58,123 bases of DNA, taken from the IMG/VR virus record IMGVR_UViG_3300028025_003736, positions 1 to 58,123 of that record, one strand, 5' to 3'. A model generated the notes under the pieces. The model had not been told where the DNA came from and did not search any database. It saw nothing but the letters and a program-made list of their open reading frames with translations. Made by a program: the position numbers and the translations under genes. This document shows positions 50,176 through 58,123 of the stretch, piece after piece. The number at the start of each line of letters is the position of its first letter. Within the stretch, counting starts at the first letter, position 1. This stretch comes from a virus. Lineage: Duplodnaviria > Caudoviricetes.

Positions 50176-50786
50176 AATAGTGGGTTTATTCTATTTGGAT
50201 AAAAATCTTCATCTAATATCTTCTCATTACCTCTCATATAGCAATCGTAATTAGAACTGTATACTACCTTGTTACCATCTTTATCTTGGTACTCTACTTG
50301 AGCTTCTTTGTCTAAAAATTCTCCTTCAATTCCAATAGACAGCCCACAGAACATATCCGCTTCATCAATGTAGTCCATGGTAAAGTGCAAGTTAGGAAAC
50401 ATTTCAACAGCTTTCTTTAGCCAACCAACAGGTGGGCTCCAAGCACTATTAAAACTGCACTCTATTCTATCGATTTCATCAAGACATAAATTGAAGTCAT
50501 ATACCTCCCACTTAGTCTTCCAATTTTGCCACCTCCAATCATACCAATTATCTGCTCCATACAGCTTCTTGTATTTTTTCATACGGGTATCGTATTGCTT
50601 GTCTGTCTCTCCATCTCTTTTTGGAAGTGGTGATACATCAGCGTTCAATTCTTGTGGCATTGGATGTATCCCATTGTATTTGGCGGTATATCCTCCGTCT
50701 TTTTCAATGATAAAAACATTTCTAAAGTCTTGCACATCTTGTGCATCTCCGAAGACGCATAGGTTGTTTTCTACGTGATTTGGCAT
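50172..50786 (-). CDS. DUF1281/YubB ferredoxin-like domain protein
   Basis: MPNHVEN, WYDWRWQNWKTKW, FNSAWSPP motifs. Confidence 0.8.
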   Translation of the reverse strand: MPNHVENNLCVFGDAQDVQDFRNVFIIEKDGGYTAKYNGIHPMPQELNADVSPLPKRDGETDKQYDTRMKKYKKLYGADNWYDWRWQNWKTKWEVYDFNLCLDEIDRIECSFNSAWSPPVGWLKKAVEMFPNLHFTMDYIDEADMFCGLSIGIEGEFLDKEAQVEYQDKDGNKVVYSSNYDCYMRGNEKILDEDFYPNRINPLL

Positions 50787-51069: not shown

Positions 51070-51204
51070 TTATTTAATGTAAATTGTGAATGTAGGTCCG
51101 TAAGCTATTTGATATTCTCTTGCAAGAAATTCTGCTTCTGACTTAGTATCTGCTGTGTCTACTTGCTCTTTTCCGTACTTGCTTAGTGCTATTATTTTAT
51201 ACAT
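51070..51204 (-). CDS. 44-aa hypothetical protein (not in ORF track)
   Basis: MYKIIALSKYGKEQVDTADTKSEAEFLAREYQIAYGPTFTIYIK; A-rich start context. Confidence 0.55.
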   Translation of the reverse strand: MYKIIALSKYGKEQVDTADTKSEAEFLAREYQIAYGPTFTIYIK

Positions 51205-51219
51205 ATTATTTATTTATTA

Positions 51220-51420
51220 TTAGTTAATAAGCATTTCAACTTTCGTTGAGTGATTAAGAAATACAATGTCATCTACTTTATATCCGCACCGAAGTTCACA
51301 TTTGGTCATCTTAAACAAGTACCCATAGTCGCTAATCTCTAATAAGATTGCAGACTTTTTATATGTGTCGTTTGGGAATAGTTTAACTTCTTTTCCTATA
51401 AAATCTGTTATACTGTTCAT
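51220..51420 (-). CDS. hypothetical small beta-rich protein
   Basis: Operon packing. Confidence 0.55.
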   Translation of the reverse strand: MNSITDFIGKEVKLFPNDTYKKSAILLEISDYGYLFKMTKCELRCGYKVDDIVFLNHSTKVEMLIN

Positions 51421-55845: not shown

Positions 55846-56025
55846 TTATTTTGTTTGTGAATCTTCGAATATAGCTGTACCTGCCAATGAGAATATAATT
55901 GCAAATGCTACAAAAGCAGCTCTACCCCCAGTATCCCAGGTTGATGGGTTTGGTGCGAGTGAGATGAAGCTTACGATAGCATACAGCGAAATGGTTACGA
56001 TGCCCAATACTTTAATGAATGTGTA
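55846..56025 (-). CDS. small 2-TM membrane protein
   Basis: Two hydrophobic helices around PNPSTWDTGGR; start position uncertain. Confidence 0.5.
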   Translation of the reverse strand, partial: YTFIKVLGIVTISLYAIVSFISLAPNPSTWDTGGRAAFVAFAIIFSLAGTAIFEDSQTK

Positions 56026-56173
56026 CATGTTGTTTAGTTTTATTTTGCCCAATAATCTATTTCGTACTTAGCGTGTGATAGGGAGTCGAAGCGTACAAAT
56101 TTGCCACCTGCGTACACTTCCCACCACCCATTATCCCTCTCGTAGATAATGTAGCCATTGTGATAAACTTCCT

Positions 56174-56368
56174 TCATATTGCTCTGAATTTATCATCTGA
56201 CTTGATAGCCATTTTAAGTTTGAACAGATTGAATTGAGTGACCGCCTCCTCCTTTCCATAGTAGGAGATGAACTTCTCAAACAAAACTTTGTCCGACGTG
56301 ATAGTTGCCTTGATGCGTCTGTGCCTACGTGAGTAGACAAGTGTACCGCTTGTTGCTTGTGTTTGCAT
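56174..56368 (-). CDS. hypothetical early protein
   Basis: A-rich start context; first ORF downstream of the structured non-coding region. Confidence 0.5.
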   Translation of the reverse strand: MQTQATSGTLVYSRRHRRIKATITSDKVLFEKFISYYGKEEAVTQFNLFKLKMAIKSDDKFRAI

Positions 56369-56419
56369 GATTATTGTTGTTCAGTTTACGCTGTCCCCCG
56401 TTCTTTGGTTTATGAAATA

Positions 56420-57120
56420 GGCATAGGGGTTGGAGTCGAACCAACCCTGCGACCATCCTATGCTTTTTATAGGTTATTTACTCGTGTTTCTGTTTGTATG
56501 TAGCGACATCCCGTCGCCCATAGTCTTTTGCTCCCTGCTTAATCAACAGACAACGCCCACTTATAGCGTTGAATGGCTTTCGCCCAGGAGGGGTATATTA
56601 CACCGCTTGACGGTCAGCGTACCCGAACCCGCTTATATACGTTTACCACAACCCCTTAAAACGTATGAAAATCACATGGGTTTTCCTCGCATACCCCTAC
56701 CATTACACAATCCGAACTATGTAGGTAGTATGCTCACTTGGTACTAATTTACGTATGCGTCGCCATGCCCATAGCTTACAAATTACTTGTAAGGGCAATG
56801 ATGCGTCAACCCAATTTAACCTACCCAATAGTTACACTACCCACTTTCCCACTCCTTTGTGTGCATAGCACAGCCCGTTATGGTATTTGCAAATAATGAA
56901 CCTCTCCCCTCATAGTGCATTTCGCCCCATATGAGTTTAAGGTAGGCGAATCATTCGGACCGCCCATAAATAGTCAATATGTCAAAGAGTGTTTTAGTGG
57001 TCAAGCACAGGACGTCGGGAATTACTCCCTAGCTAAGCCATTAGTCGGAATTACTCCGCTCTATATGGCACACTTCGCCCCACACTTTGTTTTGTCAGAC
57101 CGCCCCCTTATTTATTAGGA
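56420..57120 (-). ncRNA. candidate large structured non-coding RNA (or RNA cluster) with tRNA-like 3' end
   Basis: No credible ORF, visibly GC-richer, many nested helices, GGC-GAAA-GCC tetraloop, three AGTAATT-loop hairpins, terminal GGTTGG-TTCGACT-CCAACC arm; boundaries approximate. Confidence 0.6.
56975..56990 (-). promoter_or_regulatory. boxA-like antitermination site
   Basis: Minus strand ACTCTTTGACATATTG; near-identical copy at 57674-57690. Confidence 0.6.
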
Positions 57121-57231
57121 GCAGCCCCCACATTTGCGATATGTTTATATCGCCCCCATTGGGATATCATAAATAGAAAAAAGTGGGGGAGTTGAACCCC
57201 CATACATTCAGATTTTTAGAATGTTTTTACC

Positions 57232-57618
57232 TTACTTTTTGTTGGCATAATAACGACGTATCAATGTCATTATAAGCCATGAGCTAAATTTCCCGTTAAT
57301 TGCTTCTTTGCCCTTGAGCAATGGGAGCAAATTTTTGGGGGAGCAGTCAAGCTCATTGAAATTTACGAAGGATGAAATGAAACCTTTGTCAAATTTTACT
57401 ACACTTTTGAGGCAAAAAGAAAATGATGTATTTTCCTGCTTCACCGCATTATTGGTAGCAATTTTGTTTTGTACCAATTTTTTACCTGTCATGCCTTCAG
57501 CCAAAAAGACAATTTTTTCAGTCTTTTTTGCGGCCTGTTTGCCTTGCAAAGGTTTTTTGTTTTCTGTCTTAACTTGCTTTCTTGCTGCCTTTGTAGCTTG
57601 TGTTGTCGCTGTTTTCAT
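57232..57618 (-). CDS. first early-operon protein, basic
   Basis: 128 aa with K/A/T-rich N-terminus; only ORF between the boxA-like sites. Confidence 0.65.
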   Translation of the reverse strand: MKTATTQATKAARKQVKTENKKPLQGKQAAKKTEKIVFLAEGMTGKKLVQNKIATNNAVKQENTSFSFCLKSVVKFDKGFISSFVNFNELDCSPKNLLPLLKGKEAINGKFSSWLIMTLIRRYYANKK

Positions 57619-57673
57619 GTTGAATTTTTAAATATGAATGAATGAATGAATAAACAAGTTTAGATGATATGCC

Positions 57674-57690
57674 CAATATGTCAAGGAACT
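57674..57690 (-). promoter_or_regulatory. boxA-like antitermination site
   Basis: Minus strand AGTTCCTTGACATATTG. Confidence 0.6.
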
Positions 57691-57852
57691 ACTGACGGGA
57701 ATAATAGTATTACACTATATATGAGATGAGAAAATAAGTTACTTATTTTGATCTCATCAACACATTGCCGCCATATATAAAAGAACTGAATGCAAGGTAA
57801 AGGATATTTTTTGAAATTTTGCAATTTTACAAAATCAAAATAGTTAAAAATA

Positions 57853-58117
57853 TGTTAAGAAAAAAAATCTTAATTACATAAGAACGTGTGCGTGTGCGTA
57901 GGGTATTATTTCTTAAAAAAATGTTAACGGGACTAGAATGCATGGATATTAACGAGACTTTAACATATCCTCAAATTTCAATTATCTTGGCATTGGTAAG
58001 GGTAAGGTATCAAAACAAAGTCAAGGGGCTTAAATTGGCTGAAAATGCCTTAAAACGTGTTAATGCATTTTAACATAAATCTTTGTTAATATGTTGATAG
58101 TTAACAGCTTATTAACA
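57853..58117. repeat. cluster of TTAACA/TGTTAA hexamers
   Basis: Copies at 57853, 57922, 57960, 58058, 58070, 58084, 58101, 58112, continuing at 53 and 64 if the window is circular. Confidence 0.7.
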
Positions 58118-58123
58118 TATGGC

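What the first reader, a model, noticed from the sequence alone, without database searches (positions are those of the whole stretch)
56420..57120. Large ornate non-coding RNA candidate at the head of the early operon
Seen: about 700 nt without a credible ORF in an otherwise densely coding genome, visibly GC-richer, and packed with minus-strand helices: CTCATA/TATGAG, TGCCC/GGGCA enclosing CTTACA/TGTAAG, GCATAC/GTATGC enclosing CTAC/GTAG, ATACGTTT/AAACGTAT, GGGTA/TACCC enclosing ACCG/CGGT, GGC-GAAA-GCC, CAACGC/GCGTTG, GGCGAC/GTCGCT. It ends in a tRNA-like acceptor plus T-arm. Established: phages encode large ornate RNAs such as GOLLD and ROOL. I do not recognise this sequence as either. Inference: a possibly new class of large phage RNA made very early in infection.
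Basis: partly seen in the sequence, partly recalled or inferred. Interest (0 to 1): 0.82.

Follow-up and report, generated by a model that had tools for sequence, protein, structure and literature searches.

The report
New large phage RNA with tRNA-like ends
A roughly 0.8-kb gene-free stretch near the start of this phage's early operon encodes a large, modular, folded RNA that matches no catalogued RNA family and ends in a miniature tRNA look-alike that many unrelated phages also carry.

Summary
Window 56369-57231 lacks a credible gene, and its minus strand encodes a structured RNA. I found 10 distinct homologues in related phage and metagenome contigs, plus one distant homologue (L047).

- **Covariation:** the 3' core (56741-56464) has 67 proposed pairs, 98.2% of cells paired (38.5-47.4% when partners are slid) and 21 pairs with changes on both sides.
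- **Conservation:** the core is 72-93% identical where flanking genes are 42-59% identical in distant pairs.
- **Modularity:** 5' domains are gained or lost as whole units.
- **Known families:** Rfam 15 gives no hit, and direct GOLLD and ROOL searches are negative.
- **Ends:** the 3' end (56463-56420) is a tRNA-like minihelix. The same element occurs in at least 34 further phage loci and in named actinophages, usually a few bases after a stop codon. A cloverleaf-like element with a U-run (57240-57178) lies at the 5' side.

**Against:** folding energy is no better than shuffles (z about -1.4 to -2.2), and expression is untested.

**Best reading:** a new family of large phage RNA whose ends are set by tRNA mimicry. 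Its function is unknown.

The parts
57178..57240 (-). TLS1: a cloverleaf-like tRNA-like element that also looks like a terminator. The acceptor-like stem is AAAAAGT (57240-57234, including the stop codon of the upstream gene) paired with ACTTTTT (57184-57178). It encloses a small hairpin and a T-arm-like hairpin, GGGGG-TTCAACT-CCCCC (57201-57185), followed by a U-run.
   Evidence: Terminator scan. Complementary acceptor versions in homologues: AAAATAG/CTATTTT (L009), AAAAAAG/CTTTTTT (L002, L004, L010, L021, L025) and AAAAATAGG/CCTATTTTT (L047). The MFE fold is a four-way cloverleaf in L005, L011, L010, L021 and L025. Rfam Tymo_tRNA-like scores 20 bits in the window and 22.2 bits in L047, below the gathering score of 40. 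The R1 model matches only its T-arm (16.3 bits, E 0.65).
56975..57177 (-). Variable 5' domain 1: a run of hairpins, including two with the same GGAGTAATTCC hairpin sequence, and repeated GGGGCGAA-type motifs.
   Evidence: Repeat D8. The alignment with L009 shows compensatory changes, for example GCGATAT/ATATCGC against ACGATAT/ATATCGT. This domain is not alignable with the L002, L005 or L025 groups.
56743..56974 (-). Optional domain 2, closed by a long-range helix (ACTATTTATG at 56974-56965 with CGTAAATTAGT at 56753-56743).
   Evidence: RNAalifold on window, L009 and L023 gives 106 predicted pairs, 18 of them with changes on both sides. L021 and L025 lack the equivalent domain of about 270 nt that L005, L010 and L011 carry, and the break falls at this closing helix.
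56464..56741 (-). Conserved core. It starts at CCAAGTGAGCAT and holds a variable hairpin, a pseudoknot, a hairpin with an invariant 14-nt loop, the GGTN/NACC helix, a junction closed by CTCCT/GGGAG that carries the GGC-GAAA-GCC and CAACGC/GCGTTG hairpins, and a bulged hairpin TATGGGCGAC/GTCGCTACATA.
   Evidence: Alignment A5 of 10 distinct sequences. It has 67 pairs, 98.2% of cells paired against 38.5-47.4% when slid, and 21 pairs with a change on both sides against 2-4 when slid; 0 of 500 shuffles reach this. L009 replaces the second junction hairpin with a short loop, and L002 and L011 insert 26 nt within the core, between GCGGGTTCG and GGTCCGC. In L047 three helices are rebuilt with other letters.
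56650..56682 (-). Pseudoknot: AACCC (56682-56678) pairs with GGGTT (56654-56650) inside the loop of the next hairpin.
   Evidence: Pairs 111-139 (UA 7, CG 3) and 112-138 (CG 8, GC 2) are canonical in 10 of 10 sequences.
56420..56463 (-). TLS2: a tRNA-like minihelix. It has a 7-bp acceptor-like stem (GCATAGG/CCTATGC), a linker ATGGTCGCAG with an invariant UGG, a 6-bp T-stem, the T-loop TTCGACT and a final unpaired C, followed by TATTT.
   Evidence: Sequences. The class alignment A8 holds 35 distinct sequences, with 91.6% of cells paired against 39.5-57.1% when slid, and a covariation score of 0.63 against 0.14. Model R1 scores 62.3 bits, E 3e-12. ARAGORN calls no tRNA.
57232..57618 (-). Syntenic upstream gene (128 aa). 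It has a disordered Lys/Ala/Thr-rich N-terminus and a helical C-terminal domain, belongs to no known family, and precedes the RNA in every locus where the upstream region is held.
   Evidence: The AlphaFold model has pLDDT 76 with no convincing structural match.
57657..57684 (-). Promoter-like site upstream of the first gene (TTGACA-N16-TAAACT). The motif TTGACATATTG recurs inside the RNA at 56985-56975.
   Evidence: Promoter scan, 10 of 12 matches. The motif is seen upstream of gene 1 in L002 (as TTGAAATATTG), L021 and L025, and inside the RNA in window, L009, L002, L004 and L047.
56174..56368 (-). Syntenic downstream gene (64 aa, no known family). It is preceded by a conserved GGGGGACAGC...CTGAACA leader.

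Best explanation
The minus strand of about 57240-56420 encodes a large (about 0.76-0.83 kb), modular, structured non-coding RNA of a family that is not in Rfam 15.

**Architecture.** A strongly conserved 3' core of about 280 nt (pseudoknot, multi-helix junction, GAAA tetraloop) is preceded by 5' domains that differ between phages. The RNA is bounded by two tRNA-like elements: a cloverleaf-like one that overlaps the stop codon of the first early gene, and a 3'-terminal acceptor/T-arm minihelix.

**Proposed mechanism (inferred, not shown).** The RNA is transcribed with the leftward early operon from the promoter upstream of the first gene. The tRNA-like elements act as punctuation: they form or process the RNA's ends (hairpin plus U-run termination, RNase P cleavage 5' of the minihelix, 3' trimming and CCA addition). 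This leaves a stable RNA with a tRNA-like 3' end. The conserved core then acts as RNA, as a scaffold or decoy that engages host machinery. By analogy with GOLLD and ROOL it may do so as an oligomer.

**Shown:** the RNA-level constraint, the strand, the modularity, the tRNA-like geometry, and absence from known families.

**Inferred:** transcription, processing and function.
For: 1. **Homologues with covariation.** There are 10 distinct homologues, all in phage or metagenome contigs. The curated core structure has 67 pairs, 98.2% of cells paired (slid controls 38.5-47.4%), and 21 pairs with changes on both sides (slid 2-4; shuffles mean 9.6, 0 of 500 reach the observed value).
2. **Pseudoknot and key helix.** The pseudoknot is supported by three covarying states. 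Pair 197-225 has four canonical types in 10 of 10 sequences.
3. **Strand.** Many G-U pairs (for example 234-285 UG in 10 of 10) would be A-C mismatches on the other strand.
4. **Conservation.** The core is 72-93% identical where flanking genes are 42-59% identical in distant pairs.
5. **Module-wise indels.** L009 has a deletion, L002 and L011 have a 26-nt insert, and L021 and L025 lack a domain. The distant homologue L047 rebuilds CTCCT/GGGAG as CATAT/ATATG, CAACGC/GCGTTG as TACACC/GGTGTA, and GGTN/NACC as GTTA/TAAC.
6. **No known family.**
7. **The 3' minihelix is a robust class.** 35 distinct sequences give a covariation score of 0.63 against 0.14, with 0 of 500 shuffles reaching it. In most other phages it sits 5-9 nt after a stop codon. 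L005 and L011 carry a second copy about 1 kb downstream.
8. **Experimental analogy.** In mycobacteriophage L5 an abundant, stable non-coding RNA of about 500 nt is made from the early promoter Pleft, and about 90% of transcripts end at 51,140-51,190 (PMC5712189; I read passages and section 11). In that interval I find a T-arm-like hairpin at 51,141-51,157 flanked by GGGTAG/CTACCC.
Against: - The MFE is not significantly better than shuffles on either strand (z -2.15 and -1.84 for 801 nt; -1.40 and -1.36 for the core).
- There is no expression evidence. No listed run holding the stretch is on record as RNA, and the one run labelled RNA-Seq is flagged as probably DNA.
- The family is small and falls into a few clades, so counts of covarying cells overstate the number of independent events.
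- Several helices never vary within the close family (CTCCT/GGGAG, AGCG/CGCT, GGC/GCC).
- Parts of the structure are ambiguous. Two alternatives for the GCGGG region were tried.
- TLS1 may be only a terminator. In the L005 group its loop is not T-loop-like, and R1 matches only its hairpin.
- RNase P cleavage 5' of TLS1 would remove the stop codon of the first gene, which is awkward for the punctuation model.
- No promoter specific to the RNA was identified.
Confidence: 0.7

Rival explanations
1. The region is a cis-acting leader or read-through control region of the early operon, not a free RNA. In this reading two terminator-like structures (TLS1, TLS2) and the structured RNA between them regulate, for example by processive antitermination, how much transcription from the first promoter reaches the roughly 40 downstream genes. 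The small basic first-gene product might act as partner.
For: Both tRNA-like elements are hairpins followed by U-rich tracts. No clear promoter lies between TLS2 and the next gene. The first gene is syntenic in all loci and has a basic, disordered N-terminus. In L5 about 10% of transcripts read through the equivalent 3' end (PMC5712189, section 11).
Against: An element of about 750 nt with a pseudoknotted core that is 72-93% conserved is far larger and more constrained than is usual for such leaders (the size of known antitermination RNAs is from my recall). The same minihelix occurs alone between ordinary genes in many phages. The L5 analogue accumulates as a stable free RNA (PMC5712189).
Confidence: 0.12
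2. There is no single large RNA. The region is a string of independent small hairpin RNAs or terminators, plus one conserved RNA of about 325 nt (core plus minihelix). The 5' half would be fast-evolving spacer.
For: The 5' half is not alignable between subgroups. L021 and L025 have only about 107 nt between TLS1 and the core. L5's 500-nt transcript is processed into species of 100-400 nt (PMC5712189, section 11).
Against: The 5' domains show compensatory changes where they can be aligned: 18 of 106 predicted pairs in only 2-3 sequences. A long-range helix ties domain 2 to the junction just before the core, and it is exactly this unit that L021 and L025 lack.
Confidence: 0.08
3. It is a DNA-level element, such as a replication origin, iterons or operator sites (for example the repeated GGGGCGAA-type and TTGACATATTG motifs), and the apparent RNA structure is incidental.
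For: Short motifs recur: ATTTCGCCCC three times, CGCCCATA twice, and TTGACATATTG both at the promoter and inside the region. The region lies upstream of the replication module.
Against: Base-pair covariation with strand-specific G-U pairs and a pseudoknot is not expected of protein-binding DNA. The repeats are short (8-12 nt) and irregularly spaced (153 and 75 nt), and they sit inside covarying hairpins.
Confidence: 0.05
4. The conserved core is a protein-coding gene on the opposite (+) strand (ORF 56430..56747, 105 aa; L002 6827..7231, 134 aa).
For: Long open antisense frames span the core in 5 of 10 homologues: window, L002, L004, L011 and L010.
Against: The frame is broken in the other 5 of 10 (L009, L023, L005, L021, L025). 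Three different frames are used over the same columns, and indels are not multiples of three. Variable columns fall 37, 47 and 43 of 105 at codon positions 1, 2 and 3 (p=0.37), so there is no codon periodicity. There is no Pfam hit, and the only PHROG hit has E 0.078. The ORF lies opposite to all neighbouring genes. The + strand has negative GC skew here, which I take to mean it is purine-poor and so has few stop codons.
Confidence: 0.02
5. It is a highly divergent GOLLD or ROOL RNA that the Rfam models miss.
For: The overall lifestyle is shared: phage-encoded, large, associated with tRNA or tRNA-like elements. [quoted passage not shown]
Against: There are 0 matches at E<=10 to RF02032 and RF03087 on the whole record, and none in the permissive cmscan of the window region or of five homologous loci. 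The ROOL control search rang in no control genome, so that negative is weaker.
Confidence: 0.03

Closest known systems
GOLLD RNA (Rfam RF02032)
   Same: [quoted passage not shown] It is often next to or linked with tRNAs, and its function is unknown (PMC12286853, passages read).
   Different: There is no sequence or structure match at E<=10. Here the linked elements are tRNA mimics without an anticodon arm, not tRNAs. Oligomerisation was not tested.
ROOL RNA (Rfam RF03087)
   Same: A large ornate RNA of phages and prophages, found near tRNA islands and highly abundant (PMC12286853, passages read).
   Different: No match at E<=10. That search also rang in no control genome, so the negative is weaker.
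Abundant early non-coding RNA from Pleft at the right end of Cluster A mycobacteriophages (L5, D29, StarStuff; PMC5712189)
   Same: It is a non-coding stretch of about 500 nt at the start of the leftward early operon. It is the most abundant and stable transcript, and its 3' end maps to 51,140-51,190. There I find a T-arm-like hairpin with a flanking acceptor-like stem. The related phage Sheen carries a full-scoring copy of the same minihelix class at 51141-51188.
   Different: No sequence similarity to the core was seen: the window region found no match in GenBank phages. The L5 element is a longer cloverleaf, not the 44-nt minihelix (R1 only 15.3 bits). The paper does not describe it as tRNA-like (0 occurrences of the term).
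MALAT1/MEN-beta with mascRNA (Rfam RF01684) and plant-virus 3' tRNA-like structures (for example Tymo_tRNA-like RF00233)
   Same: In each, a long RNA carries a tRNA-like module at its 3' end that host tRNA enzymes recognise. RNase P, RNase Z and CCA addition for mascRNA is recalled knowledge, not from a call.
   Different: Those are eukaryotic or RNA-virus systems. Only sub-threshold scores were seen here: mascRNA 18.3 bits against 42.5 at the second minihelix of L005, and Tymo_tRNA-like 20-22 bits against 40 at TLS1.
tRNA and the tmRNA tRNA-like domain
   Same: An acceptor/T-arm coaxial stack of 12-13 bp, a canonical T-loop UUCGACU closed by G-C, and an invariant UGG in the linker that could mimic D-loop G18 G19.
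   Different: There is no D-arm, no anticodon arm and no tag reading frame. The 5' acceptor strand is local rather than at the RNA's 5' end. ARAGORN finds nothing, and Rfam tmRNA matches only 17 nt of T-arm.

Membership tests
GOLLD (RF02032) | Match to the family covariance model (416 positions, gathering score 150 bits). | tested here: not met
   0 matches at E<=10 on the whole 58-kb record. None in the cmscan of 56000-58123 at E<=10.
ROOL (RF03087) | Match to the family covariance model (574 positions, gathering score 99.1 bits). | tested here: not met
   0 matches at E<=10 and none in cmscan. Caveat: the same search rang in none of the 14 control genomes.
tRNA | A cloverleaf with D-arm, anticodon arm and anticodon, detectable by ARAGORN or Rfam tRNA models. 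| tested here: not met
   ARAGORN finds 0 genes in the window. The minihelix has a 10-nt linker in place of the D and anticodon arms.
tRNA-like minihelix (acceptor/T-arm mimic) | Acceptor-like stem stacked on a T-stem (about 12 bp in all), a 7-nt T-loop UUCRAnU closed by G-C, and stems that covary. | tested here: met
   The window has 7+6 bp; most of the class has 6+6 bp. The T-loop is TTCGACT. Six pairs show 3-6 pair types across 35 sequences.
tRNA-like minihelix (acceptor/T-arm mimic) | Recognition by RNase P, the CCA-adding enzyme or T-loop modification enzymes. | not testable with these tools
   This needs biochemical assays.
tmRNA (RF00023) | Acceptor stem formed by the 5' and 3' ends, pseudoknots, a tag reading frame, and detection by ARAGORN or Rfam. 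| tested here: not met
   ARAGORN finds none. Rfam matches only model positions 347-363 (15.9 bits against 47) at TLS1. The small frame in the TATGGGCGAC hairpin changes non-synonymously while pairing is kept.
Large structured non-coding RNA (generic kind) | Several hundred nucleotides, no conserved ORF, and multiple helices supported by covariation. | tested here: met
   The element spans about 760-830 nt. There is no conserved ORF on either strand. 21 of 67 core pairs and 18 of 106 pairs in the 5' domain show changes on both sides.
Large structured non-coding RNA (generic kind) | Transcribed as a discrete RNA. | tested here: inconclusive
   No run on record as RNA holds the stretch, and only contigs could be laid on it.

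The most novel reading that the evidence does not exclude
This would be a previously undescribed class of large phage RNA whose ends are built from tRNA mimics.

The 44-nt acceptor/T-arm minihelix would be a widespread phage 'punctuation' or tRNA-decoy module. It is found from AT-rich (35% G+C), probably Bacteroidota-infecting phages to 73% G+C actinophages, usually just after stop codons near the head of early operons. It would recruit host tRNA-processing or tRNA-binding machinery to make very stable early RNAs.

The abundant, toxic Pleft RNA of mycobacteriophage L5 would be one such case. The large core here would be an RNA-only machine or cage comparable to GOLLD and ROOL, or an anti-defence decoy.
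Probability: 0.35. Interest if true: 0.9.

Novelty: new variant of a known kind. Interest (0 to 1): 0.78.

Why it matters
Only a handful of very large structured RNAs are known in bacteria and phages (GOLLD, ROOL, OLE, raiA), and their functions are largely open.

This locus adds a family with clear modular architecture and an explicit link to tRNA mimicry. That link gives directly testable hypotheses: RNase P and CCA-enzyme processing, 3'-end formation, and stability.

The terminal minihelix also ties an uncultivated phage group to named, culturable actinophages. In one of these groups (mycobacteriophage L5 and its Cluster A relatives) an abundant, toxic early non-coding RNA is already documented but unexplained. 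So the proposed mechanism could be tested in a laboratory system.

Tried and rejected
**Searches that found no further members**
- blastn of the region against 50,697 GenBank phage records found no match.
- Single-protein searches with the 128-aa and 438-aa neighbours in IMG/VR found nothing.
- A profile of the first gene found only the same six contigs.
- Pattern TTTTAAGGNNTTGTGGTAAA hit 17 stretches. 11 were unrelated coding sequence (L006-L008, L012-L019) and were dropped.
- Two pattern scans of 185,579 species genomes gave 0 hits and 1 hit. The single hit (L032) lies inside an ordinary GC-rich gene and was rejected as chance.

**Expression**
- No listed run holding the stretch is on record as RNA.
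- One run labelled RNA-Seq (flagged as probably DNA) holds a 211-nt contig over 56390-56598 only. All runs were contigs, so nothing can be said on expression.

**The upstream protein**
- No Pfam or PHROG family.
- Foldseek against PDB gave no match at E<=0.001. VIA-align wide gave a best Z of 4.3, which is not meaningful.

**Structure alternatives rejected**
- The long hairpin AAGCGGG/GGTNCGCT has 3 of 10 mismatches at pair 162-197. It was replaced by GGTN/NACC.
- An RNAalifold pairing of GGAAAAYCC with the TLS2 linker was rejected as an alignment artefact.
- Pairing of the conserved downstream GGGGGACAGC with CGCTG of the core was rejected by inspection, because the changes are not compensatory.
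- An all-against-all column covariation screen was too noisy to use with so few clades.

**Other ideas rejected**
- An attP or tRNA-fragment reading: the 5' acceptor strand is adjacent, and no integrase appeared among the 30 ORFs scanned.

- I first typed a wrong Rfam accession from memory and corrected it.
- The csRNA catalogue of IMG/VR (PMC10690425) reports motifs of 29-151 nt only. Its supplementary tables, which might list pieces of this RNA or the minihelix, could not be seen.
Full report
**What is there**

The window is a 58,123-bp IMG/VR virus record, estimated 54% complete. Structural genes lie on the + strand: large terminase, a 2150-aa ORF and an endolysin. A leftward block on the - strand holds replication and recombination genes: exonuclease, a DUF1064 resolvase-like protein, a BT4734-like primase/helicase, a PD-(D/E)XK exonuclease, a Rad52-like protein, a dNMP kinase and an M42-like peptidase. 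The BT4734-like domain suggests a Bacteroidota host; that is an inference.

At the upstream end of the leftward block, a promoter-like site at 57684-57657 precedes a 128-aa gene (57618..57232). An 863-nt stretch, 56369-57231, then follows. Its longest same-strand ORFs are 41-43 aa, and its GC reaches 0.454. The next gene starts at 56368.

**Known families**

- Rfam 15 gives no hit at gathering score in the window.
- Nothing meaningful appears at E<=10 in 56000-58123. The only hits there are a 17-nt tmRNA T-arm match and a 20-bit Tymo_tRNA-like match, both at the hairpin after the first gene.
- ARAGORN finds no tRNA or tmRNA.
- Direct searches of the record with GOLLD (RF02032) and ROOL (RF03087) give 0 matches at E<=10. 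The ROOL search also rang in no control genome.
- Homologous loci give no hit either.

**Homologues**

The neighbouring peptidase led to one related contig (L002, 51% protein identity). L002 has a gap of about 710 nt in the same position, and its 3' third aligns with the window at far higher identity than the proteins.

Motif scans then found more copies. In all there are 10 distinct sequences: window, L002, L004, L005, L009, L010, L011, L021, L023 and L025. L020, L022 and L024 are identical copies. All come from phage or metagenome contigs. Eleven other stretches that matched one motif were unrelated coding DNA and were dropped. Two scans of one genome per prokaryote species found nothing real, and GenBank phages hold no copy of the region.

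In every locus where the flanks are held, the order is the same: first gene, hairpin plus U-run, non-coding stretch, small gene.

**Evidence for RNA structure**

- On the 10-sequence alignment (A5), RNAalifold predicts 66 pairs, 20 of them with changes on both sides.
- My curated structure has 67 pairs in 11 helices. 98.2% of 651 cells are paired, against 38.5-47.4% when the 3' partners are slid by 1-3 columns. 21 pairs carry a change on both sides, against 2-4 when slid. None of 500 column shuffles reaches the observed covariation score (0.229 against 0.093).
- A pseudoknot is supported. AAYSC in GGAAAAYSCATG pairs with GSRTT in the invariant 14-nt loop of the next hairpin, with states CC/GG, TG/CA and TC/GA. 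All 10 sequences are canonical.
It fits better than an alternative hairpin that has 3 mismatches.
- Conserved G-U pairs fix the strand as minus.
- Where the 5' half can be aligned (window, L009, L023), 18 of 106 predicted pairs have changes on both sides.
- The core is 72-93% identical between loci whose flanking genes are 42-59% identical in distant pairs.

Against this, the MFE z-scores are weak and similar on both strands. With only a few clades, the cell counts also overstate the number of independent events.

**Modularity**

- L009 lacks the second hairpin of the junction, which leaves a short capped helix.
- L002 and L011 carry a 26-nt insert (two small hairpins, one with a GAAA loop) within the core, between GCGGGTTCG and GGTCCGC.
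- L021 and L025 lack a 5' domain of about 270 nt that L005, L010 and L011 carry. The break falls at the helix that closes that domain.
- The distance from the first hairpin to the core ranges from 107 to 468 nt.

A distant homologue, L047, has a recognisable first gene, a TLS1-like element, about 830 nt of non-coding DNA and the same 3' end. It rebuilds three helices with different letters: CATAT/ATATG, TACACC/GGTGTA and GTTA/TAAC. Its 5' core does not align reliably.

**Not coding**

The antisense strand is open across the core in 5 of 10 homologues and broken in the other 5. Different frames are used over the same columns. Variable columns show no codon periodicity (37, 47 and 43 of 105; p=0.37). 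No protein family matches. A 15-codon sense frame in one hairpin changes non-synonymously while its pairing is preserved.

**The tRNA-like ends**

The 3' end (56463-56420) folds as follows: a 7-bp acceptor-like stem, a 10-nt linker with an invariant UGG, a 6-bp T-stem, the loop TTCGACT, one unpaired C, then TATTT. Both stems covary within the family.

A scan for its linker plus T-arm found 39 stretches. 34 are in other, mostly GC-rich phage contigs. ARAGORN calls a tRNA at only one of these sites. Rfam, at E<=1 on 12 of the loci, finds nothing at the sites.

Across 35 distinct sequences, 91.6% of cells pair (39.5-57.1% when slid), six pairs show 3-6 pair types, and the covariation score is 0.63 against 0.14 (0 of 500 shuffles). 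In most of these phages the element starts 5-9 nt after the stop codon of diverse genes of unknown function. Some contigs carry arrays of 2-4 copies.

A covariance model (R1) scores the window copy at 62.3 bits. It also finds a second, weaker copy about 1 kb downstream in L005 and L011, again 6 nt after a stop codon.

At the 5' side, the hairpin after the first gene is enclosed by a 7-bp stem that includes the stop codon. That stem exists in four complementary versions across loci. In five loci the minimum-energy fold is a four-way cloverleaf. In the L005 group, however, its loop is not T-loop-like, and it could be simply a terminator.

**Link to cultured phages**

The minihelix class occurs, unannotated, in Mycobacterium phages Sheen, MyraDee, HINdeR, Journey13 and SWU2, in several Gordonia phages, and in Streptomyces phage Dagobah. 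In Sheen it lies 7 nt after gene 85, the second gene of the leftward operon at the right genome end (R1 61.1 bits).

For the related phages L5, D29 and StarStuff, Dedrick et al. 2017 (PMC5712189; I read passages and section 11) report a non-coding RNA of about 500 nt made from the early promoter Pleft. It is highly abundant, stable and toxic to the host, and about 90% of transcripts end at 51,140-51,190.

In L5 I find a T-arm-like hairpin, TCGGGTTCGATTCCCGA, at 51,141-51,157. It is flanked by GGGTAG/CTACCC, and there is a sub-threshold full-length tRNA-Sec match over 51,133-51,228 (22.1 bits against 47). ARAGORN finds no tRNA there. The paper does not use the term 'tRNA-like'. This is an analogy, not homology of the cores.

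**Interpretation**

About 0.9 likely:
- A real RNA-level element of a family absent from Rfam 15.
- A large, modular RNA with a tRNA-mimicking 3' end that belongs to a broad phage class.

About 0.4-0.5:
- The tRNA-like elements define and stabilise the RNA's ends through termination and host tRNA-processing enzymes.
- The RNA is made early from the first promoter.

About 0.2:
- The core works as a self-assembling scaffold or as a decoy for tRNA-binding or defence proteins.

Expression could not be tested. The notes of earlier readers were closed.

**Literature**

Searches for a description of such an RNA or minihelix found none. The IMG/VR csRNA catalogue (PMC10690425; passages read) reports motifs of 29-151 nt and mentions tRNA-like candidates. 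Its supplementary tables could not be seen, so pieces of this RNA, or the minihelix, may be listed there. A 2026 preprint on bacterial tRNA mimics (outline and abstract read) concerns other families (skipping-rope, DUF2693-FD, salivarius-1). I believe these are in Rfam (recalled, not checked), and no Rfam family matched here.

Noticed in passing
L033-L066 (for example L033:1320-1363, L036:1330-1373, L055:3994-4037): The 44-nt acceptor/T-arm minihelix with linker AUGGUCG occurs in 34 further phage contigs of 48-73% G+C. It usually starts 5-9 nt after a stop codon, and neither ARAGORN nor Rfam recognises it.
   Followed up: partly
L062:3620-4128; L051:3888-4041; L063: Arrays of 2-4 near-identical minihelix copies spaced about 100-240 nt apart in GC-rich contigs. 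ARAGORN calls one of them a 94-nt 'tRNA-Ser'.
   Followed up: no
L068 (phage L5, NC_001335) 51133-51228 and 50425-50471, minus strand: tRNA-like elements lie where the published abundant Pleft non-coding RNA ends, and again between genes 89 and 88. The paper does not describe them as tRNA-like.
   Followed up: partly
L005:684-723(-) and L011:2439-2478(-): A second, weaker minihelix (R1 34.7 bits; Rfam mascRNA 18.3 bits) lies about 1 kb downstream of the large RNA, 6 nt after a stop codon. No such second copy was found in the window.
   Followed up: partly
window 57684-57674 and 56985-56975 (minus strand): The 11-nt motif TTGACATATTG sits at the promoter-like site of the first gene and again inside the RNA. 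The internal copy is also present in L009, L002, L004 and L047, but not in the L005 group. It could be an internal promoter, an operator or a structural element.
   Followed up: no
window 56410-56372 (minus strand): A conserved motif, GGGGGACAGC...CTGAACA, lies between the minihelix and the start codon of the next gene in all loci. No pairing partner was found for it.
   Followed up: partly
L048:3457-3960(-) and L066: In a 63-64% G+C phage, a stretch of about 500 nt without a convincing same-strand ORF precedes the minihelix and contains the same ACCGAAAGGT hairpin as the L002/L011 insert. This may be another large RNA capped by the minihelix.
   Followed up: no
L002 and L011 compared with L004 and L005: Mosaicism: L011 has an L005-like core but shares the 26-nt insert and the irregular T-stem/linker version of the minihelix with L002. 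This suggests that RNA modules are exchanged between phages.
   Followed up: no
window 57700-58123: An AT-rich contig end (GC about 0.30) holds many TTAAC/GTTAA repeats upstream of the early promoter. It may be a regulatory or origin region.
   Followed up: no
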